The translations under genes and the position numbers were made by a program. The notes beneath the pieces are model-generated. The model was given only the letters and a program-made list of their open reading frames with translations, ran no database searches and was not told the origin of the DNA. Positions 2,803-44,116 of a stretch of 64,000 nucleotides of DNA are shown here, one piece after another. Numbering within the stretch: the first letter of the stretch is position 1; each line of letters begins with the position of its first letter. The stretch comes from an uncultured Elusimicrobia bacterium (GTDB taxonomy: Bacteria; Elusimicrobiota; Elusimicrobia; FEN-1173): the NCBI GenBank assembly GCA_964482515.1, contig CAYZXT010000006.1, forward strand, positions 28,521 to 92,520, in the 5' to 3' direction.

Positions 2803-3167
2803 CTAACCTTTTTCCCAGAGCTTCTTGCCTTTGAAGCCGTCGCCGGGGGCGTCGTCCGACGGCGGGATCCTCCGCTTGAGCTCCGCGTCGTCCGCGGCGG
2901 CCACGAAACGGAACTCGATCTCCTCGGGACGGATCAGGCCGAGGTTCCGCCTGGCTTCCTGCTCGAGGAATTCGTCGTCCCTCTGGGCACGCGCCAGTTC
3001 AAGCTGTTTGTTCGCCAACCGCGCCTGGGCCTCCTGCAGTTTGGCCGCCAGCCGGCTGTATTCCCGCCGGCGCGAAATGTAACCGCGCACGCCGCTGCTG
3101 GAGGCCAGCATCACCAGGACGAAGGCCCCGATGGACAGCCAGAGGACGTTCGTCTGGACGAATTTTT

Positions 3168-3171
<4 letters not shown>
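2803..3171 (-). CDS. ftsB: FtsB/DivIC-like septum formation initiator (coiled-coil, single TM)
   Basis: It lies immediately downstream of eno, the classic eno-ftsB synteny. The coiled coil is [38 protein letters not shown]. The TM helix ([15 protein letters not shown]) is encoded upstream of the first canonical start (GTG 3114), so I extend to CTG 3171. This start is uncertain. Confidence 0.6.
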
Positions 3172-4529
<1,358 letters not shown>

Positions 4530-6082: not shown

Positions 6083-6284
6083 GGGGCGCAAGTCTCCTCG
6101 GAGCCTCGAGGGACTCCGCAACAGGTTTGAGCCGCTATCCTATCACAAGGTCAAAAAGCTGTCAACGGCGGTCTGAGAGGGAAAAACGATGTGAAATCCT
6201 GACCTTAACAGTCATTTTTTGGGCGAATGGAGGACAGAAACTCGGCCGGATGGTAGGATTGATTTTTTGCCGGATGCAAACAGC

Positions 6285-9200
6285 TTAAGCGGAGGTCAAG
6301 AAAAGGCCAAGAGCCTTCAGTCCTTCTTGCAGGCTCTCAACCAGGCGGAAAATCGGCACCAGGACCACAACGTCCTTGTAGACGCCCAATTCGACCTGGT
6401 CCGAAGCGAAAATCACCGCATTTTTGGGATCCAATTGCCCCGCCTTTTCCAAGGCCGACAACAGCCTGTCCATCCTCAAGATCGCTCCGTCCAGAAGCGA
6501 CACTTCCGCGCGGGCCGAAGCAATGAGCGAGGGTCTCTCGCCGGCCAGGATGATCCGGATGTTGCCTTGGCGCAACAGGACGTCGTAGTCGCGCATGAAT
6601 TCCTCCCGGTCCCTGCCCGCATTGAAGGCTGCGTCCGCCGACATGCCTTGCCAGAAATCCGGAGAGGCTTGGCGCGGATCGCGCACGATCAGGGTCAAGG
6701 TGTTCGCCGTATCCCCGGCCGTTCCCGCATTATTGGCGACGAAGGCCGCCAGCAGTCCCGACACGGAGGCGCGCGCCGCGCCCTTCTTCATCACATCCGC
6801 CGGAACTTCAGCGAAGACGTCTTTGCCGCCCCTCATCCGCGCGGAAACTTTCGTGAAGACGACGCGTCCGGCGTATGCGGCCAGAATGTCACTCCGGAAG
6901 GTTTCATGGCCCCGCGGCGACCAAGCATCGCCCGGCGCGTTGTCGCCCAAAGACTCCAAAGCCCGCCCCAGGACATAAGCGGCCCCCCGGTCCCCGCCCC
7001 TTGCCGATTCCCGCGCCAAACCCTTGGTCAAGGCCCCGCGCAGAGCCGCCGGGTCGGGCGTTCCGTCCACAAAAGCGTTGCTGGCCAGTCTGATGTGAAT
7101 CCGCGGCAGGCCCAGGGCGTCCACCCCGAAATTCCGCGCCGGAGCGATGCCGCGCAGCCAGACGCGGGCCCGGTCGCGGAACCCCGACTCCTTCACATGC
7201 CAAGAATCATCGACGGCCACAGGGACCGGAACAACGGAAACCTCCGAAACCGAATCTTGCCGGGCGGATAGGATCGCGCGGAACGCCGCGGACAGAAGAG
7301 CGGAGAAGACCATCGCCAGAACAATCCCGCCGGCCACGCCGCCCGCAAGAGACCCCGCAAGGAAACCCAAAGATACCGGCAGGACCTGCGCCGCGAAATA
7401 GGCCCACCGCTCGCTCACCACGCCCAAGCCGTGCAGCGCCTCGTGCCCGGGCACGCCCAGGATATAAAGGCCGGCGCGGGACAACACCTTGAAAACGGGG
7501 TTTGAATGATAGACGAAATGGGCGAGGGAAGGATTCAGGACTAGCGCGTGTGTGTTCTTTTCAAATTCCAATAAATCGACGCCGGGCTCAACGCGGACCG
7601 AGCGGAACCCGAACAGGGGCGGCGCGCGACCGTCGGGGGTTTCATAGGCCGCTCCCGAACGCGCAGCCGCCGCCAAAACCAATCGGAGAATCCCCATCAG
7701 GACCAGCCCCGCCAGGGGCCAAGCCGCCGCCGCGCCCAGAGAGCTGGCCGCAAAACCGAAGGACGCGGCCAAAAACTGGGCGGACACCAGGAACGCCGCG
7801 GCCGCCACGCCGAACAACGCCGCCGCCCACAGCCCCTGCCGCCAGGTTTCCCGGGACACGGCCCTGCGCTCGATGTCCTCAAACAGCCTGTCATAAGCAT
7901 CCGACTCTCCTTCCGCTTCGAACCAATCGCGAACTTTTTTCAACGCGGCGGAACGATCCACCAGCGTTTCCAAAAGCCTATTCAGCAATTCGCTCCTTGG
8001 TCCATGGGCCGTCGGTTCCGATTGAGCGTCCCTCTCGCGCGATGAATACGCCTTCGCGGCGTCCTCATAACCCATTATGTCCGAAACTTTCCCATCATCG
8101 CCCACGAAGTACACTTGCACATACTCCGGAACCCGACATTTCAAAATAAAGTCCAACATGGCCTTTTTGGGAAACGCAGCATTCACTTTAATCGTGCACG
8201 GGACCGTGATCCCCGTGGTCAACTCGTTTAGGACGCGATGGATTATCAACCATTCCGATAGACCTTCTAAATTTATACTAATTACGGATGAATTATCCTC
8301 GACCCGCGTTTCCTCCTTCGACAACGATCTCATAAGGCCGCGAAGAGTTCCCATCATCTCCTCTGTAGGATTGGTTGGTTCACCAAATTTTCCGGACAAC
8401 GCCCAGGCATGGTCGTATTGCTTGGACCCGCTATCAACTATCAAGTCCTTTGGATTCGGATGGTGGAGGAACAAATTGACGATCATCGCCTCGGGAAATT
8501 GGCCGTCAGAGACAAAGACTTTATGCAGGGCCCGCAACCCAAAAAGAGGAGACAAATCCTTCACCCGGCTGGCCTCCAAGTGAAGTATCCCCAGACTGGG
8601 CAAGGACCCCATGCCTTCGAGGGGTTCCTGTCTTTGTCCCACATTGACCAGCAACCCGAATACATTTTTTTCCACCGTGGCTGAAGGGCCAAACAGGTCC
8701 CTCGCCCGCGTTACTTGGCTTTCGAGAGTGGGGAAGCGATCCTCAGCGGCCGGGGCCGGCGTCGCAATGGGCCCCATATCGGCGAACTCTTCCGGGTGCG
8801 CGCGGCGATAAGCGACAGCCTCGGGATAGGCTATTGTTCTGAACGATTTAAAAAATCCGATCTTGACGGCCTCGGGTCGAGGGGAACTTAAAATGATCCT
8901 CGACAGCACGGCTTCGGAAAATTGCCCTTCTTCGATAACTATTTTTAAATTCCTTACGTTAAGGTATTGAACCATTTTCAGCATGTCGGAACCCTTTATG
9001 CTCGCTCCGACAAAAAAAGTAAATTCCCCGAAGGATGACGGGTGAATGCTGCTCTCATTGGCGGCTGCGGGCCCGACTATTGCTTTCAGGTCATTCGACA
9101 ATTCCGCCGCAATCACAGAATCATTGTATGACGGAAAGATATGATCCATGCGATACGTCTTCTTACCTTTTCCCGATCTGGAAATTTCAGCAATAAAAGC

Positions 9201-12200
9201 CTTCGGCGCAGGACTATAATCCTGATAAAAACTCCTGATATCCTTTTTACGAAATTTCCCCTCTGGAATACTCATGGTTTTCAGCCCTCGTAATCCACTG
9301 AAAACCCTCAAGTCGGAAGGGCCATCCTCCTTAATAATGATCGATTCGATGCTCGGGCACTTCCTCCAAAGGACGTCCCAGGAAACCGCATAGTCCCGGT
9401 CAAGCATTAACTCCAGGGGACCATCATCACGCAAATGAACTTGATTTTCGCCGAAGGTGTCAACGAGAATCCGCCGCTGCTCCTCGATCGTGGGGAAGGG
9501 GTCCGGCGTATCTGCAGGCTGGACAGTCCGCTGCGCGGCGGGCGGCGTTGTCCCGGGCAACGCCATGAGGGAGAACTGCTTTGGGTGCGCGCGGTAATAC
9601 GCGACAGCCTCGGAATAACTCATTGAACGAGACTCCCCCTCATCGGATGAAAAGATAAAATGAACGTTCTCGGGCACGGGGGAAGTTAAAATAAAAAAGG
9701 TCATGAAAAATTCGTCGATTTGAAATCCTTCAGACATCAGAAAGACTTCTCTCATTTCAGAAAAGCCCGTCAGTACCCTCAATTCATCGACGCCCAGCCC
9801 TTGAGAAAGGCGAATGCGTAATTGCCACATATCCTGCATAAACTCCGCTGTCACAGAACTCATCATGTTGTGTCGCCCGAGTTTTTCCCTGATTATCGCC
9901 CTGACTTCCTTGAAGCCGGACCCTGGAATGAAGTCCGCCGCCGAAAACCATTTCATGCCTCCAGACGGATTGTCTGAATAAATACGGATCCTTCCAGAGT
10001 TTTCAGCTTCGCGATAAAACCTTTCAAGTTCCACTCGATGAAACCTCCCGGCTGGAAGCTGGATATTGCGCAGACCCCTTATCCCTTCATAAAAGTTAAT
10101 ACTGAGGGTGCCGTTTTCCCCGACAATTATCGTCCTAATGCTCGGGCAATGCTTCCAAAGGGATTCACACTCCCTATAAGGAAATAAATCTCTATCATCC
10201 ACAGTTAACTCCAAATCCCCGTTCCTATCCACCTTCACTTTTTCGGGCCCGAAGATATCAATGAGCGCTTCACGCTGCTCCTCGATCGCGGGGAAGGGGT
10301 CCGGCGTATCAGCAGGCTGGACAGTCCGCTGCGCGGCGGGCGGCGTTGCCCCGGGCAACGTGACGGTGAACTCCTCCGGGTGCGCGCGGCAATAGGCGAC
10401 AGCCTTGGAATAATCCATAAAACGGGGGGTCTCCCCTTGCATTATAATCTCCTGAATCTCCTCAATCGAGACGCCCTCGGGAAAAGGAGCGCTCAGAACG
10501 ATTCGGGCCATGTCGGCATCCGTAAATTGATCATGATCCACAAATATCAGGATACTCGCTCGACGAGAGTATTCCGTCATTTTCATTAAGTCGGGAACCG
10601 TCGCAACCTTCGTAGGTTTAATCTCATACTTACGAGATACCCCCAGACGAACATAAATATCACGCGTCAAGTGGGGCGGGACGAATTCTCGGCACGCCTC
10701 TTCCATCTCGGATATTAAATTTTCGTTGCTCAATCCAGGGGTGAAGGTGCTCGCCGAATAACTTTGTCTTACTATTTCTTCATCCCACACATGAACGACA
10801 ATTCGCATGGGATCATTTTCATTCCCAAAAAAAAGGCCGACGTCGTCATCAGAAAATTTTCCCGGTGGAATAAAAATGGTTCTCAGCCCTCTTAATCCAT
10901 TGAAAATCCTCAAGTCGGAAGGGCCATCCTCCCTGATAATGATCGATTCGATGCTCGGGCACTTCTTCCAAAGGGCGTCCCAAGAAACCTCGTAGTCCCG
11001 GTCAAGCGTTAGCCCCAGGTTACCGTGGAGAAGCAAACGAACTTGATTTTCGCCGAAGGTCTCAACAAGAATCCGCCGCTGCTCCTCGATCGTGGGGAAG
11101 TGACCGGAGGCATCCAATACATTATCGGGATAAACAGAATCAACCGGCGCCTCCTTCAAAACGGGCGCCCGTTCCCTGTCGCGGCGGGCGACGGCGTAAA
11201 TGTAAGCCGCTTCCACGCGGGACTGCAGTTCCCGCGCGCTCATGATGATGTAAGGCGCTTCTTTCAGATAGGCGGCCGCCTGGGGCTCGTCCAATGTCCC
11301 GGAAACAACAACCACCTCGAACCCCCTGTCCTTGAGGAAATGGACGAACTCGCCGGCGATGAGATTGCCCCCGTTGGCCGGCAGGCCGTGAACGAGCAAC
11401 GGCGGCCGGGTCGAAGCGGTGGGCATGCCACCGCGGCGGAACCCCCGCAAGGGATTGCGCAGGAACTTGGGGAGATAGAGCGTTCCGGTCCCGGGCGGGC
11501 CGAACTCCCGGCCCGGAGTCGCACGCCGCTGCACGAAAGCGGAAGCTTCCGCGTCAAGGAGGGATGAAACCGTCGTGCTTAATTCCTTCATTTTTGAATA
11601 TCGGGACTCCTCACTCAGAACGCTGGGGACAGGACGCGCCGATACGGATTCAGAGATCTGGACATCGTTATTGTCGTCGCGAGCCTTCGATTCATGAGCT
11701 CCCTCAATTCCATCGTATCGGGAGCCGACCGTTTCCGAGGCAACCCGACCAAACAATCCCGCCAGCCGACCCATTTGCGATATCCGGATCCGCCCAAGGA
11801 ACCCCAAAAATCGGGTCAACCGAGAATCTTCGGTTGAGACCCCTTCTGCCCTGGCCGCCGACAACTTGATCCCGCCATAAACCATGGACGCCAATAAACT
11901 GAGTCCGACAATAATAACCAGCGGAAGATAATTCGGCATTCCACGCAACAGCTCGGGTTCAGGAATTCTGGGAATCATTGCCGGAAGCGCCGAAGATCCC
12001 GAATTCGCGTGAACAACAAGAAGAGCCAGGATTCCCGAAGCCAAAAGGACCCCCGCGGCCAATGCCAGCCGCCTCATCCGAAATCGCGACCCGGCCGGCG
12101 CTTTATTCGATTTCAATTTAGCTTGCGCGATGGCCAATATCTTCGCTTTCCTCGCCGTCAAATCCTTGTCTCCGAGAAATCCCAGGGCCGTCAGAATCGA

Positions 12201-15200
12201 CCGGGGCGCCTTATTGTCGGTGAGCTGCGCGATTATTTCCCGAAGGCGCTCTTCGGAGGCCAGGGGCAAGTCATCTTCCATCAAACCGAGCTCATCGCTC
12301 AAACTCTTTAATATTTCGTTGCGCTGATCCTGCAAATCCTCAACGACGTCCTCCAGCGGCTCCTCTGGAACCGCCCGTTCCTCCATCTCGCGCGGCGGGC
12401 CGGACAGGTCCACCTCCCCGATACGACCAAGGACTTTCCCAACGTCAACACTCCCCGGCCGTGGCAAAACCGATTTTTCCTTGGGAGAACGAACCGGGAC
12501 GGCACCAAGGCTTAGGAACTCACCGTCCAATTTGATCCTCTGCATGGCTTTCAGGGCAAGGTATTGCCGGTAAAGAATTTCATCCTCCTCCAGGGTCTCC
12601 GGGATACCGTTTTGAAAAATCTCATCCACAACGTCCAAATGCCGCAGGGCCAAGGCAAACGGGTTGAGGTTTACTTCCCCATACCGCTCCAACCAAGCCG
12701 ACGCGGCCGCTTCCAATTGCGTTCGCGATATTTCCTTCCTTCCGTAGGCGATCAGGGCCAGTTGGAATATTTTCTTCGGCGCCAGGGAAAACAGCCCCTT
12801 CCAGTCACCGGCAATCCCCCTCTCCAAGTCGCGCTGAAAATAGACCGACTCATGGTCATTGTCTTGCGTTATGCTTCCGGGGAAATGTTGCCGCATTGCC
12901 CTTTTGTGACGCAGATCCTCCAAATCTTGATACACATCCTCAAAGGGGTCCGCCGGGGCCTGCAACCCCGCGAGCGAAAGAAAAAAATCCGGCGCCGAAG
13001 TGGGGGTAAGCCCCGCGAAATCCCGAGTGAATAACCCATGTCCGGCTTCATGCTCCAGGGTGTTCAACCAATCTTGGCCATCGAACTGGTCCTCCCTAAA
13101 AGCGATGTCCACCTTCTGCGCTTTGTAGGTCCCAGCTGCGGACTGCCCCGCGGGCTTGAGGCTGATTGTCACCGGCCGTTGGTGGACAGGAAGGATGAAT
13201 TGGGCGATGCGGCCGATGGCCTTCACTTTGTCCAGGCCGCTTCTGAACTCCAGGGAAGCAAGCGCCTTCCGGCCGGGCAATTCTTGCCCCCTCAGCATCC
13301 TCCGCAGATAGATGGGGCCGTACACCCTCTCCACGGCCTCTTCCGCCGAAACGCCCGACGCCGCCACGAGCAGGGCCCGCTTGAATTCCCGCGGCGTGGG
13401 CCGCTCCCGAGACCGCGGCAGGGCGTTCTGTATCCAAAGGTGCGCGCGGACGATGTAAGCCATGTCCTCGTCCGACAGGGCCGGGGCCTTCGTCCCGAAT
13501 TCCGTGACGATGTCCAAAGCGTATTCCGATAAGTCATCCTTGTCGTAATCCATCTCGCGGCGGAAGATCACCCGGTTCTGCAAGGCCGTGGAAAGCCTTT
13601 CGCGGCCGCTGAAGTCGGCCCCGTTGATCGTGGCGATGAACGCAAAACCCTTCGCGTCGGTGTTATCGTCGGTCAGCACGTCGTTCAGCTTCCCTTCCAA
13701 ATAGCCGCTGGGCAATACATCCAACTCGCTGACCACTAGAACGACCCCGTTCTCCTTGGCCCAAACTATGGCCTTCTCAAGCTCGTCGAACCGCGGCGAG
13801 GCGTTGATGTGGCAAAAGCTGCGCGGGCCCGGCGCGGCCGCCCCCGCCTTGACCGCCTCATAACCGCTCGACTCCAGAACCCGCACCACGGTCACGTCCT
13901 TGCCGCGGCCGGAGGCTCCCTCCAAAATCATTCCCCGCTTTCCCGCCGCAAGCCCGTTCCGTTTCATACGATATTCCCGCATGATGAGGAAATCTCCCAC
14001 CGCCGCGGCCAACCTCATCGTGGTGCGCGATAGGGTAAGGGCCCTCGACCTATACAATTGGGCCCCCTCGTTGCGCAGATCCTCTATCCAGGCGTTTTGG
14101 AGAGCCTCCGCGTCCACCGCGAATTTCAGGCGGAGCGCGTGCCGGAGCGCGACGCGGCCCTCCGGACTCAAGCTCGGCGAGAACATTTCCCACGCCGCAA
14201 GGAGCGCTTCTTCCACGATATTGCCGGATCCGCTCAGCACCTGCGCCCGGGCGGACAGTTCCTGGAGGTCGCGCAAAGAAATTCCCTGTCCCTCCTCCCA
14301 CCCCGCCACCCGGCGAACGGTCTCAAATACCCCGAGCAGCAGGGCCCGCAAGGCCGCCGCGTTCGGCGCATCCGGCGACACGTATTCTTCGAGCCTTTGC
14401 CGGAAAAACGCCTCGTCGAATTCAGGGAAGGCGACGGTGGGGACGTGCGGGGCGAGGAAATCCTGATACTTTCTGTCCTGCAGGGTTTCCTGGTTCCCGG
14501 TGAAAACGACCTTCTTGCCCTCCATATCGATCTTGCGCCCTTCGATCCACATGTAGGGGGTTTCCCCTTCTCCCACGAACAGCCCCCCGAAGAACCGCCA
14601 AAAATCCGGCCGCGCCAGGTTCGCTTCGTCCAGGACCAGCAGCGCCGGCCCATCGTGCAAAGCCCAGCGCGTGATGTCGGCGAACGCGGAGGCCCTGCCG
14701 GTCTCATCGTCGTTCGAGTCCTGTTCCTGGGCGTCCACCCCGATCGTCACGGGCCCGAACATCCGCAGCCCCAGCGCGTCCGCCAAACCTTTTGCCGCAA
14801 AGCTTTTTCCCGTCCCGGGAGACCCTTTCAGGAACACCGCCGGGGATTTTGCCAATATTCTCCGCACCCGCCCCAAACGTTTATCCCAACTTTCCTCGAC
14901 CGGGCCGGCCTTGTCGTTGATGGAAGGAGCTTGATCAACGGACGCGTTCGCCTTTCGGAAAAGGGCGCGGTAGAAACCCTCCCGGTCATCGCCCAGGTGC
15001 GCCGCGATCAGCGCGTCCTGAATCAGCTCGAGCGCCCTCCCGGCGCCCGCGCGATCAAAACTTTCGGGCACGCCGGCTTCGTCCAACAAATCCAGGCTGA
15101 GGGTATCCGCGAATTCCCAAAAACGGTCCTTCCATGTGGCGGGAGCGACGATCTTGTTCATCGCCGCTTTCAGTTTCGGCCCATGAATGCTCCTCCCAGT

Positions 15201-18200
15201 CAGCCCCGCCTCCTTCGGCCGAAATGTCCGCCGCGCCGCCGTCCGCAGAAACGCGGCCACGTTCGGATCGTCCGCGTAATCGTCAAGATAAACGTCCTCA
15301 AAGGCCCGCATCCAATCCAGCGTGCCATCGGGGTTTCGAGCCTGGCGGCACAGGAGCCGGAGGCGTCCCAGGCTGAAATCCGCCCGAGCCGGATAGAGCC
15401 CGCGCCGCGCCGGCGGAGGGACCGTCTCGAAAGCCCTTCTCAAGGAGAGCACCTTCTCAATATCGCTTTCCGTGAGAGCTCCACTGAATTCGCGCTTCAA
15501 TTCCTCCACTATGTCCCGCACGGAAATGTCCAACACGGCGCGGTGAAGAACCGAGACGCCGGCGCCGCTCCCGATATGAGAAAGAAGGATCAAGCGTCCC
15601 GTTAAAACGTTTTCCCCTTTGCCGGCGAAGGGACGGACCTCGCCGTTCACCACGAGATAGGGATTTTCATGCAAAGCCGTTTCCAACTGGCGCAGGAGAT
15701 CCGGATTGGATTCCATCCCCGCCAAAACGACGGTTTCTCCCCGTTCCAAGGCCTCCAACACCTGCCTCTTGACCGCCCGCAAACGCCCCCCCGGCAACAG
15801 CTCGCTCGCCATCGATAGATCGTCCAGGATGGTCGCCGGCGTGACCGGATAAACAAGGGGGGGCTGGCCGTTCCGTTCGGAGACGTCCCGCATGATCCGC
15901 GCCAACAGGCCGGACGGGTCCGATCCTTCAACGAGCGACACCCGCCGGTCCCGCGCCATTTCCCACGACTCCGGATCCGGGGCCCTGGTCCGGCGGACCG
16001 CCGGCAGCATTCCACGATAACGCAACGGGACCTCCACGCCGACGCCCAATTCAATTTCCAATTCGCCGCCCATATGCAAAAGACGGTGCCACAGCGACTC
16101 CGGAATTTCCGGATCGGTTATAAGGACCCGGAGACGCCCTCCGTCCGCGCCCATCCGCTCCAGCAATCCCGCGCCCTGGGACAACGTCCCCTGGGAATCG
16201 ATGCGGGTGAACTCAAACAGCTGGTGCTGCGTTTCCCGGTTCAAGACCCACGCGCGCTCCGCCGGCCAGGCGGTCTCGCCCGCCGGCACGACCCGTTTAT
16301 TCTCCAAGGCGCGCCGCCCGTAGCCGCCCTCCGCCCAATGGACGGAAAAACCTTCCCGCGCCGCCACCCATTTTCCGTTGGAAAGGATCCCGCCGTTCAA
16401 GAGGGCCTGCCGGACCATGTGGGACAACCGGGTGTTGGGGATTCCCTGCTCATCTCGCCACACGCCCCCTTGGATCAAGAGGGGCCGCCCTTCCCTCATG
16501 GCCCGGACGAGTGCGCCCTCTTCCCAGCGCACGCTTCCGTTGGGCAGAAGCCGGTAGCGCGCGACCAGCGCATCCTTAATATCGATGTCGTCGGACTCGA
16601 AAAGTTCCGCGCGCAGGCCGTTGAAAGCCTCCGGATCGTCGACCTGGGACAAACCTTCCAGCGGATCCGCGTAATCCGCGTCCGCTTGGAATTCCCCGGT
16701 CAGGGAGCGTGAATAAAAATCAACCGAAAATTCACGCAGCTGGTCCTCCCGCACCGCCCCAACGATGCGGAGCGACGGAGAGGCCTTAACGCCCAAATAC
16801 TCCGGAGAGTCCCCGAACAGCTGATTGAATCCCGCCACGGTCTTTGGGTCGGAATTCGTGTAGTCCAGGAACAACACGCCGCCCCGCTCGATCAATTGAA
16901 GCAAGGGGCTTTTCGCCTCCCCAAACCGGCCGTTTATCACGCGCGCGGGATTGAGCAAATCATCCAAATCGGTGTCATCCCGCAGGGTCAGCCGCAAATA
17001 CGGAATGTTTCCGTTCGCGGCCACGATTTCCCTTAGCCGCACATCCAATGCCTCCACATCCCGGGGCGTATTCACGAAGGTCAACCCGCGACCTTCGTTC
17101 AATAGATCGGTCAGGCTCGGATCGGCCCACGGCGAACCCATCGTCATCGGGAAACGGCGGAATATTTTGTTCCACCCCGTGTGGACGGCAACGGCCAGAA
17201 CAAAGCCGATCACCATGGCCAGGAGGGAGTAAAGCGGTCCATCGAACCCGGACAGGAACAACCGGGGCGCGGCGAGGGCGGCGAGGTTGAATAAGACAAC
17301 GGCGAAAAGGCGGACGGCGAAATCAACGGGGGATTTATTTTCATGGCGGAAAACGAAAGACGCCTGGTGCGCGGCGTAATAAACCGCCGCCACCAGCCAG
17401 AACGACATGACTATCGCCAAAAGCAGCGGATTCGCCTCCAGCAACACAGCCTTCAAATTCCATGCCGCCATCAGGATGAGGCCAGGCGCGCGGCCCATCC
17501 AAAAGGCGCGCCAGCGCGTCAACGTCGGCTGCCCCCGCGCTTCGATTTCCTTCCGCGCCGAAGCGGCGGGAGCCAGGCCCGCTTCTTCAATCACGGAATA
17601 GCCAAGCAGCTTGTGACTGATCATAGGATTCCTCAGCCACTCCGGCGCATGCTTGACCGCATTTTCGTAATAGGCCTTCGTGCTCGACAGGATCAGCGAG
17701 CGGCTTCCCCACAGGTTTTTCCACCAAGGAACGCTCAACCTCCGCGGCGGACTGAACCTCACCGACTGAAAGGAATCAGCGCCTCCCACGGGGAATTCGG
17801 CGACCACCGACGGCGCGCCCGGTCGCGCAATCAACAAGCCGTTCTCTCCGAACCCGATACTCCACCCCCACCACGCCTTGGCTTTCTCAATCAGCGCGCG
17901 AAGATTTTTACGCCTTTCACCTGAGGGAAGTTTGTTTTCCCTCCACCGCGCCTGGCTGCCCTCAACAGTGGCGGCCAAGGCGTTCGCCTTCACGGCGAAA
18001 TCATGGGCCTGGATCCTTCGCTGGAAGGGTTCGGCCAACCGCCGAATCAGCCCCGGCGAGGTAAACCGTGCGAAGATCAGGGAGATGGGTTCTCCGGCGA
18101 AAATTTTCTCGATGGGGAGTGGATCGCGGGAGAAGATGTCCATGTAATTTTTGGCCTGATCGATGTTTTCCACCTTTGGCGTGACGACGACGTAAGACGC

Positions 18201-19853
18201 ATTCTTCCGCCGCCAAAGCGCCGTCATACCCTCGGTGTGGAACCCGCCGGTCACCAGGACGGCGGAGGTTTGCTTTTCTTCTTTCATTTTCCTGAGCAGG
18301 TTTTCGGTGAGGGCTTCATTGCGGGCCAAAGCCAGACGGCAGAAATCTTCGAACGGTTTCAGCAATTCCGCGCGTATGGCGGGAAAAGCCGGAGAGCCCG
18401 ACGACAGAGAGCGGGCCCGGTCCGCCATGTTGAGGATCAACGGGCGTCGTTCCGTATAATCGGCCCAATGCCGCGGCGTCATTTCCGTGCGGAGCAATTT
18501 CGTCAGCAGGGCCTGGTCGCGTCCCAACCCCGCCAGTTCCTTTTGCGCCGGCTCAAAAGTGAGCCCGGCTTCGACTGTTTTTTCCATCCGTTCCAACTCG
18601 TCCAACAACTTGTCCCGGTTTATGCGCTCCGCGGACTGGACGTAGGTCATATAATCGGACAACTGCGGATAGCCGGTCAGGTCGATGTTCTTTTCCCGGC
18701 AAAGATCGCGCATATACGCGTAATATTCCCCGTAGCTCCTTTGACCGGCGCGGTACTCGACGCTCGCCCGCACCAGTTCATCCAGGGACTCCCGGCTCAG
18801 TCGCGATACCAGGCGATCGATCAAATCAAGCCGCTCGCGTTCCACCTTTTTGAAATCCAGTTTTTTCTCCCACCGGATCGCCCGGGACAACAGGGCCACG
18901 TTGGGATAGGCCCCGGCATCCGCGCGGGAGGAAAGAAAATCCACGTAAGCGCCCAGCCCTGTTTTACCCGCCTGGAAAGTTTGATAGAAGCGGTCGAACT
19001 CCTTGAGCCCGGGCGAATAAATTTTTTCTTTCAGACCGCTCACGGCCTCGGCCAGACCCGAGAGGAACTCCTCCGCTTCCCTCCGGCGGTCCTGGGCCGA
19101 GAGCACCGCGCGGGTGTTGTCGGCGTAAAGGTCGCCCGTCTCCACGCCCCAGAGGAGCGGCGCGACCTCCGACACCAACCCCAAATATTCCGCACCGCCC
19201 ACGTATCCTTCCTCCAGGAAATAGTCCGCGAGCTGTTGGTTCATTTCTTTCCCGGCCTCGGGCAGGGCCTTGTATTTTTCCATCTCGAAGTAGCCCTCGG
19301 CGCCCTCCAACCCCACGAGCTTCACCCCGCGCCCATCCTTCAGTCCCTGCAGGATGCGGGCGATGTTCTTTTGCGCGTCGTAGGCGCCATGGATGTCTTG
19401 AATGTGGATGATGAGGGGCGAATCCGATTTAGCCAAATGGATTTCCCGGACGCTTCCATAGGGCAAGACCAATCGGGAAAGCCAAGCGGGAACAATCCCG
19501 TTCTTGGCCCACTTCACGTTTTCAGAGAGGTCATGGGCGGACAAGGGAGCCAGAGATGGGGCGAGGGTGGATCCGTTCAGGGTTTCGGGAAGTCCCAGCG
19601 GGATTTGGCCGGTGGGAAGCTGGGCGAGGAGTTGATAGTCCCGGGATGAAAGACTGTTCGCGCGGCCCGGGTTATTTTGCGCCGAAGAGCGGGATACGGA
19701 TCTTCGTTCCTCCCAAAAGTTCGCCTCGGCCAAGGGCGATGCGACCGTTGAATAAAATAACAAGGCGCAGAGGGCGGCGGCGAGGCTCTTTTTGCTCGGT
19801 CCTTGCGCGCTGAAAGGCCTGAAAATCGAGCGGGTTCGGCGGATTATATCCAT
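6285..19853 (-). CDS. giant (4,522 aa) polytopic membrane protein: conserved N-domain, multi-AAA+ block, two HExxH motifs, 4 tandem modules, C-terminal domain
   Basis: ATG 19853 to TAA 6285-6287, uninterrupted. Composition is protein-like throughout, while overlapping ORFs are R/P/G/A-rich shadows. Motifs read directly: GSPGTGKS (14802-14825) with LLVLDEANLA (~14611-14645); GASGRGKD (13896-13919) with VVLVVSELD (~13715-13750); IATINGADFSGRERLSTALQNRVIF (~13560-13640); HEAGH (13038-13052); HEALH (7431-7445). Hydrophobic clusters lie near 17150-17480, 11860-12075 and 7270-7850. Confidence 0.9.
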   Translation of the reverse strand: MDIIRRTRSIFRPFSAQGPSKKSLAAALCALLFYSTVASPLAEANFWEERRSVSRSSAQNNPGRANSLSSRDYQLLAQLPTGQIPLGLPETLNGSTLAPSLAPLSAHDLSENVKWAKNGIVPAWLSRLVLPYGSVREIHLAKSDSPLIIHIQDIHGAYDAQKNIARILQGLKDGRGVKLVGLEGAEGYFEMEKYKALPEAGKEMNQQLADYFLEEGYVGGAEYLGLVSEVAPLLWGVETGDLYADNTRAVLSAQDRRREAEEFLSGLAEAVSGLKEKIYSPGLKEFDRFYQTFQAGKTGLGAYVDFLSSRADAGAYPNVALLSRAIRWEKKLDFKKVERERLDLIDRLVSRLSRESLDELVRASVEYRAGQRSYGEYYAYMRDLCREKNIDLTGYPQLSDYMTYVQSAERINRDKLLDELERMEKTVEAGLTFEPAQKELAGLGRDQALLTKLLRTEMTPRHWADYTERRPLILNMADRARSLSSGSPAFPAIRAELLKPFEDFCRLALARNEALTENLLRKMKEEKQTSAVLVTGGFHTEGMTALWRRKNASYVVVTPKVENIDQAKNYMDIFSRDPLPIEKIFAGEPISLIFARFTSPGLIRRLAEPFQRRIQAHDFAVKANALAATVEGSQARWRENKLPSGERRKNLRALIEKAKAWWGWSIGFGENGLLIARPGAPSVVAEFPVGGADSFQSVRFSPPRRLSVPWWKNLWGSRSLILSSTKAYYENAVKHAPEWLRNPMISHKLLGYSVIEEAGLAPAASARKEIEARGQPTLTRWRAFWMGRAPGLILMAAWNLKAVLLEANPLLLAIVMSFWLVAAVYYAAHQASFVFRHENKSPVDFAVRLFAVVLFNLAALAAPRLFLSGFDGPLYSLLAMVIGFVLAVAVHTGWNKIFRRFPMTMGSPWADPSLTDLLNEGRGLTFVNTPRDVEALDVRLREIVAANGNIPYLRLTLRDDTDLDDLLNPARVINGRFGEAKSPLLQLIERGGVLFLDYTNSDPKTVAGFNQLFGDSPEYLGVKASPSLRIVGAVREDQLREFSVDFYSRSLTGEFQADADYADPLEGLSQVDDPEAFNGLRAELFESDDIDIKDALVARYRLLPNGSVRWEEGALVRAMREGRPLLIQGGVWRDEQGIPNTRLSHMVRQALLNGGILSNGKWVAAREGFSVHWAEGGYGRRALENKRVVPAGETAWPAERAWVLNRETQHQLFEFTRIDSQGTLSQGAGLLERMGADGGRLRVLITDPEIPESLWHRLLHMGGELEIELGVGVEVPLRYRGMLPAVRRTRAPDPESWEMARDRRVSLVEGSDPSGLLARIMRDVSERNGQPPLVYPVTPATILDDLSMASELLPGGRLRAVKRQVLEALERGETVVLAGMESNPDLLRQLETALHENPYLVVNGEVRPFAGKGENVLTGRLILLSHIGSGAGVSVLHRAVLDISVRDIVEELKREFSGALTESDIEKVLSLRRAFETVPPPARRGLYPARADFSLGRLRLLCRQARNPDGTLDWMRAFEDVYLDDYADDPNVAAFLRTAARRTFRPKEAGLTGRSIHGPKLKAAMNKIVAPATWKDRFWEFADTLSLDLLDEAGVPESFDRAGAGRALELIQDALIAAHLGDDREGFYRALFRKANASVDQAPSINDKAGPVEESWDKRLGRVRRILAKSPAVFLKGSPGTGKSFAAKGLADALGLRMFGPVTIGVDAQEQDSNDDETGRASAFADITRWALHDGPALLVLDEANLARPDFWRFFGGLFVGEGETPYMWIEGRKIDMEGKKVVFTGNQETLQDRKYQDFLAPHVPTVAFPEFDEAFFRQRLEEYVSPDAPNAAALRALLLGVFETVRRVAGWEEGQGISLRDLQELSARAQVLSGSGNIVEEALLAAWEMFSPSLSPEGRVALRHALRLKFAVDAEALQNAWIEDLRNEGAQLYRSRALTLSRTTMRLAAAVGDFLIMREYRMKRNGLAAGKRGMILEGASGRGKDVTVVRVLESSGYEAVKAGAAAPGPRSFCHINASPRFDELEKAIVWAKENGVVLVVSELDVLPSGYLEGKLNDVLTDDNTDAKGFAFIATINGADFSGRERLSTALQNRVIFRREMDYDKDDLSEYALDIVTEFGTKAPALSDEDMAYIVRAHLWIQNALPRSRERPTPREFKRALLVAASGVSAEEAVERVYGPIYLRRMLRGQELPGRKALASLEFRSGLDKVKAIGRIAQFILPVHQRPVTISLKPAGQSAAGTYKAQKVDIAFREDQFDGQDWLNTLEHEAGHGLFTRDFAGLTPTSAPDFFLSLAGLQAPADPFEDVYQDLEDLRHKRAMRQHFPGSITQDNDHESVYFQRDLERGIAGDWKGLFSLAPKKIFQLALIAYGRKEISRTQLEAAASAWLERYGEVNLNPFALALRHLDVVDEIFQNGIPETLEEDEILYRQYLALKAMQRIKLDGEFLSLGAVPVRSPKEKSVLPRPGSVDVGKVLGRIGEVDLSGPPREMEERAVPEEPLEDVVEDLQDQRNEILKSLSDELGLMEDDLPLASEERLREIIAQLTDNKAPRSILTALGFLGDKDLTARKAKILAIAQAKLKSNKAPAGSRFRMRRLALAAGVLLASGILALLVVHANSGSSALPAMIPRIPEPELLRGMPNYLPLVIIVGLSLLASMVYGGIKLSAARAEGVSTEDSRLTRFLGFLGRIRISQMGRLAGLFGRVASETVGSRYDGIEGAHESKARDDNNDVQISESVSARPVPSVLSEESRYSKMKELSTTVSSLLDAEASAFVQRRATPGREFGPPGTGTLYLPKFLRNPLRGFRRGGMPTASTRPPLLVHGLPANGGNLIAGEFVHFLKDRGFEVVVVSGTLDEPQAAAYLKEAPYIIMSARELQSRVEAAYIYAVARRDRERAPVLKEAPVDSVYPDNVLDASGHFPTIEEQRRILVETFGENQVRLLLHGNLGLTLDRDYEVSWDALWKKCPSIESIIIREDGPSDLRIFNGLRGLRTIFIPPGKFSDDDVGLFFGNENDPMRIVVHVWDEEIVRQSYSASTFTPGLSNENLISEMEEACREFVPPHLTRDIYVRLGVSRKYEIKPTKVATVPDLMKMTEYSRRASILIFVDHDQFTDADMARIVLSAPFPEGVSIEEIQEIIMQGETPRFMDYSKAVAYCRAHPEEFTVTLPGATPPAAQRTVQPADTPDPFPAIEEQREALIDIFGPEKVKVDRNGDLELTVDDRDLFPYRECESLWKHCPSIRTIIVGENGTLSINFYEGIRGLRNIQLPAGRFHRVELERFYREAENSGRIRIYSDNPSGGMKWFSAADFIPGSGFKEVRAIIREKLGRHNMMSSVTAEFMQDMWQLRIRLSQGLGVDELRVLTGFSEMREVFLMSEGFQIDEFFMTFFILTSPVPENVHFIFSSDEGESRSMSYSEAVAYYRAHPKQFSLMALPGTTPPAAQRTVQPADTPDPFPTIEEQRRILVDTFGENQVHLRDDGPLELMLDRDYAVSWDVLWRKCPSIESIIIKEDGPSDLRVFSGLRGLKTMSIPEGKFRKKDIRSFYQDYSPAPKAFIAEISRSGKGKKTYRMDHIFPSYNDSVIAAELSNDLKAIVGPAAANESSIHPSSFGEFTFFVGASIKGSDMLKMVQYLNVRNLKIVIEEGQFSEAVLSRIILSSPRPEAVKIGFFKSFRTIAYPEAVAYRRAHPEEFADMGPIATPAPAAEDRFPTLESQVTRARDLFGPSATVEKNVFGLLVNVGQRQEPLEGMGSLPSLGILHLEASRVKDLSPLFGLRALHKVFVSDGQFPEAMIVNLFLHHPNPKDLIVDSGSKQYDHAWALSGKFGEPTNPTEEMMGTLRGLMRSLSKEETRVEDNSSVISINLEGLSEWLIIHRVLNELTTGITVPCTIKVNAAFPKKAMLDFILKCRVPEYVQVYFVGDDGKVSDIMGYEDAAKAYSSRERDAQSEPTAHGPRSELLNRLLETLVDRSAALKKVRDWFEAEGESDAYDRLFEDIERRAVSRETWRQGLWAAALFGVAAAAFLVSAQFLAASFGFAASSLGAAAAWPLAGLVLMGILRLVLAAAARSGAAYETPDGRAPPLFGFRSVRVEPGVDLLEFEKNTHALVLNPSLAHFVYHSNPVFKVLSRAGLYILGVPGHEALHGLGVVSERWAYFAAQVLPVSLGFLAGSLAGGVAGGIVLAMVFSALLSAAFRAILSARQDSVSEVSVVPVPVAVDDSWHVKESGFRDRARVWLRGIAPARNFGVDALGLPRIHIRLASNAFVDGTPDPAALRGALTKGLARESARGGDRGAAYVLGRALESLGDNAPGDAWSPRGHETFRSDILAAYAGRVVFTKVSARMRGGKDVFAEVPADVMKKGAARASVSGLLAAFVANNAGTAGDTANTLTLIVRDPRQASPDFWQGMSADAAFNAGRDREEFMRDYDVLLRQGNIRIILAGERPSLIASARAEVSLLDGAILRMDRLLSALEKAGQLDPKNAVIFASDQVELGVYKDVVVLVPIFRLVESLQEGLKALGLFLTSA
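8040..11100 (-). repeat. four in-frame tandem protein modules (~805, 798, 762 and ~700 nt) inside giant ORF 1
   Basis: Module starts are marked by (P/H/R)FPT(I/L)E(E/S)Q at nt ~11100, 10295, 9497 and 8735. Each has two LRR-like halves and ends in (Y/M)xEAVAYxRAHPEEF-type linkers. Hand-counted DNA identity between copies: 85/88 (9475-9562 vs 10273-10360), 58/60 (9439-9498 vs 11041-11100), 115/125 (9281-9405 vs 10883-11007). Confidence 0.85.
13560..17150 (-). other. multi-AAA+ (AAA_5/MoxR/midasin-like) block, two units with intact Walker A/B and upstream degenerate units
   Basis: There are two P-loop/Walker-B pairs (see the CDS entry), each followed by an ATxN...GR..L..AL.NR-type segment. Upstream units lack the P-loop Lys but keep Walker-B-like strands (GGVLFLDYTNSDPKTVAGFNQLF; GETVVLAGMESNPDLLRQLETAL). 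Confidence 0.6.
18085..19722 (-). other. conserved N-terminal domain of giant ORF 1 (paralogous to 44230-45870)
   Basis: Alignable by eye block by block with giant ORF 2: FWEERR/FWQDRR; IHIQDIHGAYDAQKNI/VLVQDAHEIYSAQLNI; LVGLEGAEG/LIGLEGAAG; LWGVETGDLY/MLGVETPTLY; LDFKKVERERLDLIDRLVSRL/LDFKAVESERLQLVKILSHRL; VLVTGGFHTEG...VVVTPKV/VIVVGGFHAPA...VTVTPKV; PLPIEKIFAGE/VPLEKMFLGE. Confidence 0.85.
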
Positions 19854-37276: not shown

Positions 37277-37277
37277 C

Positions 37278-38147: not shown

Positions 38148-38148
38148 A

Positions 38149-39117: not shown

Positions 39118-39159
39118 TATAGCAAAAAAGGCCGGAGGGGCCCTGCGGGGAGGATAGGC

Positions 39160-39200
39160 AAAAAAACGCGGGTGGACCCCCGTTAAGGGACCCACCCGCG
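39160..39200 (-). terminator. rho-independent terminator after the SWIB gene
   Basis: The 9-bp outer stem is CGCGGGTGG (39167-39175) / CCACCCGCG (39192-39200), with inner CCC/GGG pairing. On the minus strand it is followed by a 7-U tract (A-run 39160-39166 on plus). Confidence 0.65.
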
Positions 39201-39841: not shown

Positions 39842-39845
39842 GATT

Positions 39846-40250: not shown

Positions 40251-40283
40251 GAGAGGAGTCTCCTTTGGAAGTTATACGGAAAT

Positions 40284-40568: not shown

Positions 40569-40605
40569 AGAGGGTTCACCCGTATTTTAGCAAATTGGTT
40601 GGCTT

Positions 40606-44083: not shown

Positions 44084-44116
44084 TTGCACATCCAACTCAG
44101 CAAGGGGAATGAACCA

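What the first reader, a model, noticed from the sequence alone, without database searches (positions are those of the whole stretch)
6285..19853. 4,522-aa single ORF with an architecture I cannot match to any characterised protein
One uninterrupted minus-strand ORF of 13,569 nt covers 21% of the window. Reading N to C, the translation shows:
- a signal anchor;
- a ~550-aa domain shared with the second giant ORF;
- a TM cluster;
- a ~1,200-aa block of AAA_5/MoxR/midasin-like units, two with intact Walker A/B;
- HEAGH;
- an acidic/coiled linker;
- a TM pair;
- four ~255-270-aa tandem LRR-like modules;
- a TM cluster containing HEALH;
- a ~330-aa C-terminal domain.

The alternation of TM clusters with ATPase and repeat blocks implies large domains on both sides of the membrane. 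That fits an envelope-spanning machine encoded as one polypeptide. Giant ORFs are known from some uncultivated lineages but are largely functionally undescribed.
Basis: partly seen in the sequence, partly recalled or inferred. Interest (0 to 1): 0.85.

Follow-up and report, generated by a model that had tools for sequence, protein, structure and literature searches.

The report
Giant membrane-anchored AAA-ATPase/LRR orphan protein
The 4,522-residue gene looks real and has no full-length ortholog in public data; it is an unusual member of a large, barely described family of big membrane proteins from Elusimicrobiota and Omnitrophota that share one hydrolase-like N-terminal "head", here fused to a rare chain of ATPase units, leucine-rich repeats and two protease-like motifs.

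Summary
The ORF (6285-19853, minus strand, 4,522 aa) is real. It keeps coding periodicity throughout. Per-run assemblies reproduce aa 1-2927 and 3800-4522 exactly; the repeat region between them rests on one assembly.

Most listed features hold, with corrections:
- Only one AAA unit (D) has canonical Walker A/B. Unit E is degenerate, and three upstream units are weakly supported.
- The four ~260-aa modules contain internalin-type LRR stretches but are not LRR solenoids.
- HEAGH is only a motif. HEALH sits in a small conserved membrane module (GHExxH..G...E).

New findings:
- The domain shared with the second giant ORF heads at least 333 genes of 430 to more than 4,000 aa in Elusimicrobiota and Omnitrophota MAGs. 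It has a TIKI/Ere/ChaN/TraB-like fold with an invariant D-x-H/E/H set.
- Paralog bodies carry unrelated enzymes, as in the multi-enzyme Omnitrophota giants.
- The AAA_5 array recurs in only three other proteins, each also with LRRs.

The TM hairpins argue against an envelope-spanning machine. At most the head lies outside the cytoplasm.

Best reading (confidence about 0.4): an inner-membrane-tethered, ATP-driven machine that remodels or processes proteins. Novelty: new variant of a known, poorly understood kind.

The parts
6285..19853 (-). Whole ORF, 4,522 aa, ATG start, preceded by a 141-bp AT-rich intergenic region
   Evidence: independent Logan contigs cover aa 1-2927 and 3800-4522
19728..19787 (-). 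Signal-peptide-like or signal-anchor hydrophobic segment (aa 23-42). Four K/R lie in the 15 residues before it, and the family-conserved EANFWxERR motif follows it.
18054..19724 (-). Family-defining head domain (aa 44-600): alpha/beta core of TIKI/Ere/ChaN/TraB type with a roughly 290-aa helical insert. Invariant residues are D153-x-H155, E183, R511 and G536-G537-x-H539.
17172..17489 (-). TM cluster 1 (aa 789-894); three helices by hydropathy, a fourth is possible
13254..17093 (-). AAA_5 (MoxR-clade) tandem array (aa 921-2200). Units A (921-1055), B (1056-1295) and C (1296-1445) are degenerate. A helical region spans aa 1446-1655. Unit D (1656-1960) is canonical and unit E (1965-2200) is semi-degenerate.
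   Evidence: Pfam AAA_5 E 3.4e-10 for the whole protein; unit B E 1e-3; unit C E 4.9e-3; D-E hhalign 93%; colinear with P0001, P0002 and L086
14802..14825 (-). Unit D Walker A, GSPGTGKS (aa 1677-1684). Its Walker B, LLVLDEAN, is at 14619-14642 (aa 1738-1745).
13896..13919 (-). Unit E degenerate Walker A, GASGRGKD (aa 1979-1986). Its degenerate Walker B, LVVSELD, is at 13719-13739.
   Evidence: relatives have GEPGIGKS and VVCDEMN
13038..13052 (-). HEAGH motif (aa 2268-2272) directly after the AAA array; zincin-like by motif only
   Evidence: no Pfam or PDB match
12078..12416 (-). Acidic, Leu-rich linker (aa 2480-2592; 21% D+E, 15% L)
11859..12065 (-). TM hairpin (aa 2597-2618 and 2643-2665), basic on both outer flanks
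7959..11102 (-). Four tandem modules of about 254-268 aa (R1 2918-3185, R2 3186-3451, R3 3452-3705, R4 3706-3965). Each carries internalin-type LRR stretches. GC3 is low in this region.
7263..7838 (-). Conserved membrane module: two TM helices, then a loop with invariant GHEALH..G...E..Y..AQ..P (HEALH at 7431-7445), then a 41-aa hydrophobic hairpin
   Evidence: Three homologs (P0029, P0040, P0041), E 4.5e-6 to 3.7e-4; alignment A7
6288..7262 (-). C-terminal domain (aa 4198-4522) with no detectable homolog
44084..49825 (+). Paralogous head-domain protein (1,913 aa) with a different body: NadD-like nucleotidyltransferase and HD/dGTPase-like domains

Best explanation
The gene encodes one inner-membrane-tethered, mostly cytoplasmic modular protein. 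It belongs to a large family of proteins in Elusimicrobiota and Omnitrophota that share an N-terminal head.

Proposed working, step by step:
1. A signal-like segment exports the head. The head is a TIKI/erythromycin-esterase/ChaN/TraB-fold domain with a complete His/acid catalytic set, so it is probably a periplasmic hydrolase or a ligand-sensing or processing module. Because it is common to all family members, it probably serves a generic anchoring or regulatory role.
2. Three TM helices bring the chain into the cytoplasm.
3. A tandem array of five MoxR-clade (AAA_5) units follows. Only unit D is a competent ATPase. Unit E is a degenerate nucleotide site, and units A-C are structural remnants. 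This resembles dynein and midasin, where only some ring sites hydrolyse ATP.
4. The array is followed by a zincin-like HEAGH motif, a TM hairpin, four LRR-bearing modules that would bind the client or partner protein, a second conserved juxtamembrane GHExxH module, and an orphan C-terminal domain.

Taken together, I read it as an ATP-driven device at the membrane that remodels or processes proteins. The logic resembles FtsH or MoxR-plus-peptidase systems, with the LRRs supplying specificity.

What is shown: the ORF, family membership, the head fold and motif, AAA_5 identity, the LRR stretches, and conservation of the HEALH module. What is inferred: topology, catalytic activity, coupling of ATPase to peptidase, and the client.
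For: **ORF**
- The ORF is real.

**Head family**
- At least 333 relatives exist, and the best 80 loci are nearly all Elusimicrobiota or Omnitrophota MAGs, with several copies per genome.
- The ORFs they head range from 430 to more than 4,000 aa.

**Head fold and motif**
- The AF2 model has pLDDT 78.6.
- Pfam ChaN/Tiki matches 18 of 63 members.
- Invariant D153-x-H155, E183 and H539 mirror the RRSP 2His/2Glu set E3900-x-H3902, E3930 and H4030. The 28-residue H-to-E spacing is the same (PMC6254334).

**AAA_5 array**
- The whole-protein score is above the Pfam cut-off.
- Unit D is canonical.
- The array is colinear over about 1,100 aa with P0001, P0002 and the L086 ORF. All three also carry LRRs, so LRRs and this array recur together.
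- P0001 has a weak Transglut_core match just upstream of its array (E 0.012). This fits the published MoxR-plus-peptidase theme (PMC3495828).

**LRR stretches**
- The top 27 PDB profile hits are all LRR proteins, E 1e-3 to 1.
- The exhaustive search hits LRR_4 proteins.

**HEALH module**
- It is invariant in all three homologs found.

**Topology**
- Both flanks of the aa 2597-2665 hairpin, and the approach to the aa 4006 helix, carry several K/R.
- P0029 continues into a DnaA-type HTH after the equivalent hairpin.
Against: - No peptidase profile matches either HExxH motif.
- HEAGH has no homologs with which to test conservation.
- Units A-C are only weakly AAA-like (hhalign E 5.6e-4 to 0.9). 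The AF2 model of the array failed (pLDDT 40), so a ring arrangement is unshown.
- No VWA/MIDAS partner, typical of the MoxR clade, was found in the protein or in its neighbours.
- Foldseek did not confirm the head fold at significance. Its best E was 0.15, and Ere-family probability was at most 0.47.
- Topology is from hydropathy only. Crude counts across the family are inconsistent.
- Paralogs carry unrelated metabolic enzymes, so fusion to the head need not imply a concerted mechanism.
- There is no expression evidence.
- The repeat region has atypical codon usage.
Confidence: 0.4

Rival explanations
1. It is a polyprotein or fusion scaffold with no concerted machine. Head-family genes would be membrane-tethered carriers onto which unrelated cytoplasmic modules have been fused, possibly cleaved later by the built-in HExxH or TIKI-like sites. 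The AAA array, LRR modules and C-terminal domain would then act independently.
For: - Bodies of 16 paralogs carry unrelated enzymes: PGM/PMM, PEPCK, PGK, peptidase M3, GDH, malate synthase, radical SAM, deaminase and one canonical AAA_5.
- The second giant ORF in the window carries NadD-like and HD domains.
- P0024 and P0025 carry an MFS transporter.
- The same pattern is described for multi-enzyme Omnitrophota giants, where proteolytic processing was proposed.
- The repeat region has distinct GC3, which suggests separate acquisition.
Against: - LRRs co-occur with this particular AAA array in three unrelated-context relatives. That argues these two parts work together.
- No cleavage sites or processing evidence are available.
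Confidence: 0.22
2. It is an NLR/STAND-like or MoxR-type conflict (immunity or effector) protein. The LRR modules would sense a foreign or partner protein, the NTPase array would switch state, and the HExxH modules would act as effectors.
For: - NTPase plus LRR plus peptidase-like motifs is the canonical sensor-switch-effector layout.
- Unit D gives weak nSTAND3 matches, E 0.0065-0.07.
- MoxR-centred conflict systems are documented (PMC7159879).
- The genes are multi-copy, hypervariable and often arranged in tandem.
- The repeat region has atypical codon usage.
- The relatives are large LRR proteins of about 2,200 aa.
Against: - No PADLOC model matches.
- AAA_5 scores better than the STAND models.
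- The neighbours are housekeeping genes: enolase, PGM, GlcD/F-like and ComEC.
- No mobile-element or defence-island context is seen.
- The paralog bodies are metabolic enzymes, not toxins.
Confidence: 0.18
3. One reading: an envelope-spanning machine with large functional domains alternating on both sides of the membrane.
For: Four TM clusters and a signal-like N-terminus. The head is probably periplasmic.
Against: - TM clusters 2 to 4 read as hairpins, so the chain returns to the same side.
- ATPase units need cytoplasmic ATP.
- No beta-barrel or outer-membrane element was found.
Confidence: 0.07
4. It is an assembly chimera or a decaying pseudogene that merely stays open.
For: - The GC3 shift at aa 2600-4000.
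- The middle 2.6 kb is supported by one assembly only, and a Logan contig breaks inside a DNA repeat.
- The protein is a singleton.
Against: - Thirteen and a half kilobases without a stop, with coding periodicity almost everywhere.
- Both flanks are reproduced at 100% in independent per-run assemblies.
- Conserved motifs are intact in the head, unit D and the HEALH module.
- The repeat offsets are in frame.
Confidence: 0.04

Closest known systems
Multi-enzyme, SP+TM giant proteins of Omnitrophota ('Archaeovorin'-type; West-Roberts et al. 2023 bioRxiv 10.1101/2023.11.21.568195; 2026 preprint 10.64898/2026.06.07.730766)
   Same: - Very long single ORFs in uncultivated small-celled bacteria.
- A signal-like N-terminus, many TM segments and mixed enzymatic modules. 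AAA_5 is listed among the domains of the Omnitrophota giants.
- N-terminal regions reported as lacking identifiable domains.
- Head-family members occur in Omnitrophota MAGs. Their bodies carry the same kinds of enzymes: PGM/PMM, FBPase and radical SAM.
   Different: - The window's protein is 4.5 kaa, not 10-147 kaa.
- No SecA_DEAD, C39/S8, HEAT or glycosyltransferase content was detected.
- The closest heads are Elusimicrobiota-like.
- This member carries no metabolic enzyme.
- Whether the published giants carry this head was not tested.
TIKI / erythromycin esterase / ChaN / TraB-PrgY superfamily
   Same: - The conserved acid-x-His, Glu and GxxH-type His set is present.
- TraB/PrgY proteins also join this domain to C-terminal TM helices (from my own knowledge, not tested here).
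   Different: - The head has a roughly 290-aa helical insert.
- Asp replaces the first Glu.
- All Pfam scores are below the gathering threshold.
- No member of the superfamily is known fused to multi-kilodalton bodies.
MoxR-clade AAA+ ATPases (MoxR, RavA, NorQ/CbbQ) and their eukaryotic derivatives midasin and dynein
   Same: - The AAA_5 signature is present.
- Several AAA_5-like units lie in one chain with only a subset catalytically intact, as in midasin and dynein.
   Different: - Bacterial MoxR proteins are single-unit hexamers with a VWA partner, and none was found here.
- Midasin and dynein have six units and, in midasin, a MIDAS domain. Here there are five candidate units, of which only D and E are robust.
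- No solved structure matches by sequence.
About 2,200-aa LRR + AAA_5-array proteins P0001, P0002 and the L086 ORF (uncharacterised, from Gram-negative metagenomic genomes)
   Same: - The only detectable homologs of the whole array: colinear, about 26% identity, with the same degenerate-A/B/C plus P-loop-D/E layout.
- They also contain LRRs.
   Different: - They are soluble, with no head and no TM segments.
- Their LRRs are RNI/F-box-type and N-terminal.
- Both their D and E sites are canonical.
- They have a possible transglutaminase-like Cys-His-Asp region instead of HExxH.
FtsH (membrane-anchored AAA+ protease)
   Same: The order is the same: periplasmic domain, TM, cytoplasmic AAA, then HExxH. 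This is a functional analogy for a membrane-proximal ATP-dependent processing machine.
   Different: The AAA clade differs, there is no M41 peptidase match, the ATPase is a single-chain array rather than a homohexamer, and the protein is far larger.

Membership tests
TIKI/Ere/ChaN/TraB superfamily (head domain) | Alpha/beta core with a central parallel sheet, similar to solved members | tested here: met
   [not shown]
TIKI/Ere/ChaN/TraB superfamily (head domain) | 2His/2Glu-type catalytic set (acid-x-His, Glu about 28 residues later, distal His) | tested here: met
   D153-x-H155, E183 and H539 are invariant in 63 of 63 members. The RRSP set is E3900-x-H3902, E3930 and H4030. The first acid is Asp, not Glu. 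Spatial clustering was not checked.
TIKI/Ere/ChaN/TraB superfamily (head domain) | Pfam family score above the gathering cut-off | tested here: not met
   Cofac_haem_bdg scores 17.7 bits against 27.7 for this protein. It matches 18 of 63 members at E <= 0.1, with a best E of 5.4e-6.
AAA_5 / MoxR clade | Pfam AAA_5 above the gathering score | tested here: met
   40.5 bits against 22, E 3.4e-10 for the whole protein. Contributions come from units B, C, D and E.
AAA_5 / MoxR clade | Canonical Walker A (GxxGxGK[ST]) and Walker B (hhhhDE) | tested here: met
   Unit D only: GSPGTGKS and LLVLDEAN. Unit E reads GASGRGKD and LVVSELD. Units A-C lack P-loops.
AAA_5 / MoxR clade | Helix-2 insert characteristic of the clade | not testable with these tools
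   The AF2 model of the array was unusable, pLDDT 40.
AAA_5 / MoxR clade | Associated VWA/MIDAS co-chaperone, fused or adjacent | tested here: not met
   No VWA hit in the protein or in flanking genes.
Midasin/dynein-type single-chain AAA ring | Six tandem AAA units in one polypeptide forming a ring | tested here: inconclusive
   There are five candidate units. D-E homology is solid (hhalign 93%). Units A-C are weak, E 5.6e-4 to 0.9. No structure is available.
Zincin metallopeptidases | HExxH plus a third ligand in a recognised peptidase fold or profile | tested here: inconclusive
   Both motifs are present. No Pfam or PDB match was found. In the HEALH module, GHExxH..G...E is invariant in 4 of 4 sequences. 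HEAGH has no homologs.
Leucine-rich repeat proteins | Tandem LxxLxLxxNxL-type units recognised by LRR profiles | tested here: inconclusive
   No Pfam LRR hit on the giant. A profile of the four modules hits only LRR structures among its top 27, E 1e-3 to 1, over module positions about 45-147. The exhaustive search returns LRR_4 proteins. LRR stretches are present, but the module as a whole is not an LRR domain.
Omnitrophota 'Archaeovorin'/multi-enzyme giants | Length over 10-30 kaa, SecA_DEAD domain, many metabolic or glycosyl-enzyme domains, many TM segments | tested here: not met
   The protein is 4.5 kaa with no SecA or metabolic Pfam hits. It shares only the SP+TM modular layout and, through its paralogs, the enzyme repertoire.
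Known anti-phage defence proteins | Match to a PADLOC model | tested here: not met
   No hit at E <= 0.01.

The most novel reading that the evidence does not exclude
The aa 921-2200 block is a genuine bacterial single-chain ring or arc of MoxR-clade AAA units, with one active site and the rest degenerate. That would make it a prokaryotic counterpart of the concatenated midasin/dynein motor. Here it would be tethered to the membrane and wired to LRR client-binding modules and peptidase sites. The literature places concatenation of MoxR-like units in early eukaryotes (PMC3495828), so a bacterial concatenated array, shared with three LRR proteins from other bacteria, would be an independent or ancestral example.
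Probability: 0.15. Interest if true: 0.85.

Novelty: new variant of a known kind. Interest (0 to 1): 0.58.

Why it matters
**1. A handle on the giant membrane proteins**
- Giant membrane proteins of Omnitrophota and related uncultivated phyla are a recognised puzzle. Their N-termini are reported as unannotatable, and their topology is paradoxical.
- This window shows that hundreds of large-to-giant genes, in Elusimicrobiota and also Omnitrophota, begin with one conserved head.
- The head has a TIKI/Ere/ChaN-fold and a complete catalytic set.
- That gives a concrete, mutable feature (D153, H155, E183, H539) for testing how these proteins are targeted, anchored or processed.

**2. A rare AAA_5 array**
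- This member carries a tandem AAA_5 array known otherwise from only three LRR proteins.
- If the array forms a single-chain ring, it bears on how midasin- and dynein-type motors arose.

**3. Practical caveat**
- The protein is an orphan with no expression data, so all functional statements remain predictions.

Tried and rejected
- **Whole-protein homolog search:** it timed out.
- **PDB sequence searches:** phmmer with the whole protein found nothing. Profile searches with the head, the AAA array and the HEALH module gave no significant hit.
- **AF2 of the AAA array:** with a 3-sequence alignment it gave pLDDT 40, so no fold search was run on it.
- **Fold searches of the head model:** Foldseek against the PDB was not significant. 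The afdb50 library was unavailable.
- **Defence models:** PADLOC gave no hit.
- **Full-length orthologs:**
  - None of the 82 head-family loci contains the AAA array or the repeats.
  - The metagenome scan with the array alignment found only two loci, both of the soluble LRR type.
  - The exhaustive search of aa 3330-4522 returned the protein itself as the only full match.
- **Exact look-up of the giant:** The look-up of encoding contigs found nothing. Continuity was tested through the neighbouring genes instead.
- **TM counting across the family:** a crude count to fix topology by parity was inconclusive.
- **VWA reading of the C-terminal domain:** considered and rejected, because there is no DxSxS motif and no Pfam hit.
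- **tRNA-His call:** considered spurious, because Rfam gives no match and it lies inside an ORF.
Full report
**Observation**

The window has one minus-strand ORF at 6285-19853: 4,522 codons, ATG start, one terminal stop. It follows a 141-bp AT-rich intergenic region. With roughly 0.03 stops per codon expected at 62% GC, such an ORF cannot be chance.

GC3 > GC1 > GC2 holds in frame in almost every 200-codon block; aa 2601-2800, where the low-GC3 region begins, is the exception. GC3 falls from 0.70-0.83 to 0.52-0.60 across aa 2600-4000, against 0.83-0.89 in neighbouring housekeeping genes.

The protein is a singleton 90% cluster from one NCBI contig of 116 kb. Neighbouring genes also occur on per-run Logan contigs:
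- L087 and L088 are 100% identical to window 23386-11071 and 25536-17980. They reproduce giant aa 1-2927 and 1-624.
- L089 is 100% identical to window 8457-4559, which is aa 3800-4522 plus PGM.
- Only window 8457-11071 (modules R1-R3) rests on a single assembly.

That stretch contains an 88-nt/97% repeat 798 nt apart and a 272-nt/84% repeat 1,602 nt apart. L087 ends inside one of them. Both offsets are multiples of three, so a mis-assembly would change module number, not the frame.

**Anatomy, N to C**

- Signal-like segment, aa 23-42, with a strongly basic N-flank.
- Head domain, aa 44-600.
- TM cluster, aa 789-894: three helices by hydropathy, with a weak fourth candidate.
- AAA block, aa 921-2200.
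- HEAGH, aa 2268-2272.
- Acidic, Leu-rich linker, aa 2480-2592 (21% D+E).
- TM hairpin, aa 2597-2665.
- Four modules starting at aa 2918, 3186, 3452 and 3706, 19-44% identical to R1.
- Two TM helices, aa 4006-4066.
- A loop with HEALH, aa 4137-4141.
- A 41-residue hydrophobic stretch, aa 4157-4197.
- An orphan C-terminal domain, aa 4198-4522.

**The head domain is the key to context**

It is 35% identical to the N-terminus of the second giant ORF at 44084-49825 (E 6e-86). These are the only two copies in the window.

A database search found three homologs at 41-44% identity, one from an Elusimicrobia MAG. A scan of one genome per GTDB species, using an alignment of the heads, gave at least 333 confirmed relatives. 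The best 80 are nearly all Elusimicrobiota MAGs, with five to nine or more copies per genome. Omnitrophota, MAGs labelled 'Planctomycetia' and Ca. Obscuribacterium also appear. No hit exceeds 47% identity.

The ORFs these heads open range from about 430 to more than 4,000 aa. Twelve exceed 3,800 aa and are cut off by the 10-kb flank limit. Several loci hold two or three such genes in tandem.

Across 63 heads the invariant residues include D153, H155, Q161, E183, R511, G536, G537 and H539.

Evidence on the fold:
- Pfam's ChaN/Tiki model matches 18 of 63 members below threshold, best E 5.4e-6, and TraB matches one.
- An AF2 model from 25 sequences has pLDDT 78.6, and about 90 in the core.
- Foldseek was not significant, although Ere-family entries had the highest probabilities.

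The invariant D-x-H, the Glu 28 residues later and the distal GGxH His reproduce the RRSP 2His/2Glu set (E3900-x-H3902, E3930, H4030; PMC6254334).

I conclude that the head is a divergent TIKI/Ere/ChaN/TraB-fold domain with a large helical insert and a probably competent active site.

**Paralog bodies**

A Pfam census of 16 bodies gave:
- PGM/PMM, PEPCK, PGK, peptidase M3, PLP enzyme and deaminase;
- malate synthase, GDH, nucleotidyltransferase and radical SAM;
- FBPase, methyltransferase, EamA and ABC1;
- one canonical AAA_5.

The second giant ORF in the window carries NadD-like and HD/dGTPase-like domains. P0024 and P0025 carry MFS.

This matches the multi-enzyme, SP+TM giant proteins described for Omnitrophota, whose N-termini were reported as lacking identifiable domains. 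None of the 82 loci contains the AAA array or the repeats of the present protein.

**AAA block**

AAA_5 passes Pfam's cut-off for the whole protein (40.5 bits, E 3.4e-10).

- Unit D is canonical: GSPGTGKS, LLVLDEAN, then VFTGNQ.
- Unit E reads GASGRGKD and LVVSELD. Relatives have GEPGIGKS and VVCDEMN at these positions.
- hhalign links D and E at 93% probability. Units A-C match D or E only weakly, in the Walker B register (E 5.6e-4 to 0.27).
- Pfam gives AAA_5 at E 1e-3 for unit B and 4.9e-3 for unit C.

The whole block aligns colinearly with only three proteins, at about 26% identity: P0001, P0002 and a 2,236-aa ORF in L086. All three are about 2,200 aa and soluble. All have N-terminal RNI-type LRRs and a full AAA_5 hit in unit E. 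P0001 has a weak transglutaminase-core match just upstream of its array (E 0.012).

No PDB sequence matches the array. No VWA domain was found in the protein or its neighbours. AF2 on the array failed (pLDDT 40), so a ring is unproven.

**Modules and C-terminal part**

Exhaustive HMMER search of aa 3330-4522 against 1.84 billion representatives returned three kinds of match:
- the protein itself;
- LRR_4/LRR_8 proteins hitting aa about 3737-3810;
- three small proteins matching aa 4011-4222.

A profile of the four modules hits only LRR structures among its top 27 PDB matches, including Roco LRR and internalin B (E 1e-3 to 1, module positions 45-147). The modules therefore contain internalin-type LRR stretches within a larger unit that has no other match.

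In the HEALH module, GHExxH..G...E..Y..AQ..P is invariant in all four sequences. One homolog continues into a DnaA-type HTH, which implies that the segment after the last hydrophobic hairpin is cytoplasmic.

**Topology (inferred)**

The ATPase must be cytoplasmic. The aa 2597-2665 cluster reads as a hairpin with K/R-rich flanks, and the aa 4006-4066 cluster reads as two helices. The LRR modules, the HEALH loop and probably the C-terminal domain are therefore cytoplasmic too. Only the head can be outside.

Crude TM counts after the head across the family are not consistent. Of the 44 members with a hydrophobic cluster after the head, 25 give 1 or 3 helices and 19 give 2 or 4; 23 further members show no cluster within 520 aa. 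This echoes the localisation paradox noted for the Omnitrophota giants.

**Mechanism**

I favour (0.4) an inner-membrane-tethered, ATP-driven device that remodels or processes proteins. Its parts would be:
- a periplasmic TIKI-fold head, acting as a generic anchor, sensor or processing module;
- a cytoplasmic single-chain AAA_5 array with one active site;
- LRR modules as the client-binding platform;
- two HExxH sites as candidate processing centres.

This parallels FtsH and the MoxR-plus-peptidase systems proposed in PMC3495828.

Rivals:
- a fusion scaffold or polyprotein without concerted action (0.22);
- an NLR/MoxR-type conflict protein (0.18; no PADLOC hit);
- an artefact (0.04).

**Novelty**

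This is a new variant of a known but poorly understood kind. The two findings that go beyond what I could find described are the shared TIKI-fold head and the rare association of LRRs with the AAA_5 array.

Noticed in passing
window 44084-49825 (+): Second head-domain giant ORF of 1,913 aa. It has the head (aa 27-603), a roughly 54-aa hydrophobic stretch, a NadD-like nucleotidyltransferase (aa 920-1035, E 2.5e-8), an HD/dGTPase-like domain (aa 1209-1397, E 1.9e-6) and a further TM cluster. The even TM count after the head would put nucleotide enzymes outside the cytoplasm, which is paradoxical.
   Followed up: partly
L014, L018, L024, L026, L056 (MAG loci): Head-domain genes often lie two or three in tandem in Elusimicrobiota MAGs, and genomes carry five to nine or more copies. 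This looks like an expanding paralogous family with hypervariable bodies.
   Followed up: partly
window 7850-12050: The LRR-module region of the giant ORF has GC 0.51-0.55 and GC3 0.52-0.60. The rest of the gene has GC3 0.70-0.83 and housekeeping neighbours have 0.83-0.89. This suggests separate origin or recent expansion of the modules.
   Followed up: partly
window 9475-9562 / 10273-10360 and 9227-9498 / 10829-11100: Near-identical DNA repeats at module junctions (88 nt at 97%; 272 nt at 84%). An independent Logan contig stops at 11071, inside one of them. Module copy number is the one part of the ORF not independently supported.
   Followed up: yes
P0001 aa ~890-1010; L086 ORF aa ~790-930: The soluble LRR plus AAA_5-array relatives carry a Cys...His...Asp motif set (GSCRH / DCHALIEL / VNVDLGG) just before the array. 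Transglut_core matches weakly (E 0.012) in P0001 only.
   Followed up: partly
P0024, P0025 (database proteins): Distant head-domain relatives (21-23% identity) are fused to an MFS_1 transporter domain.
   Followed up: no
L001 543-8495 (GCA_016788905.1): A 2,650-aa gene with an APH (kinase-like) domain lies next to a head-domain gene that is truncated at the contig end. Part of its N-terminal region matches the giant's head (35% identity, subject aa 52-150).
   Followed up: no
window 40065-40137 (+): ARAGORN calls a tRNA-His with anticodon ATG inside ORF 39831-40721. Rfam finds no tRNA at gathering threshold anywhere in the window, so the call is probably a false positive.
   Followed up: yes
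window 35903-39195 (-) and 50957-55643 (-): A squalene/phytoene-synthase plus amine-oxidase (hopanoid-type) gene cluster, and two adjacent large sulfatase-family membrane proteins (746 and 818 aa).
   Followed up: no
window 6219-19649 (+), several: Antisense ORFs of 150-550 aa run all along the giant ORF, for example 18003-19649 and 14058-15605. They have no Pfam support where tested (4652-6130, opposite PGM) and are typical high-GC shadow ORFs.
   Followed up: partly
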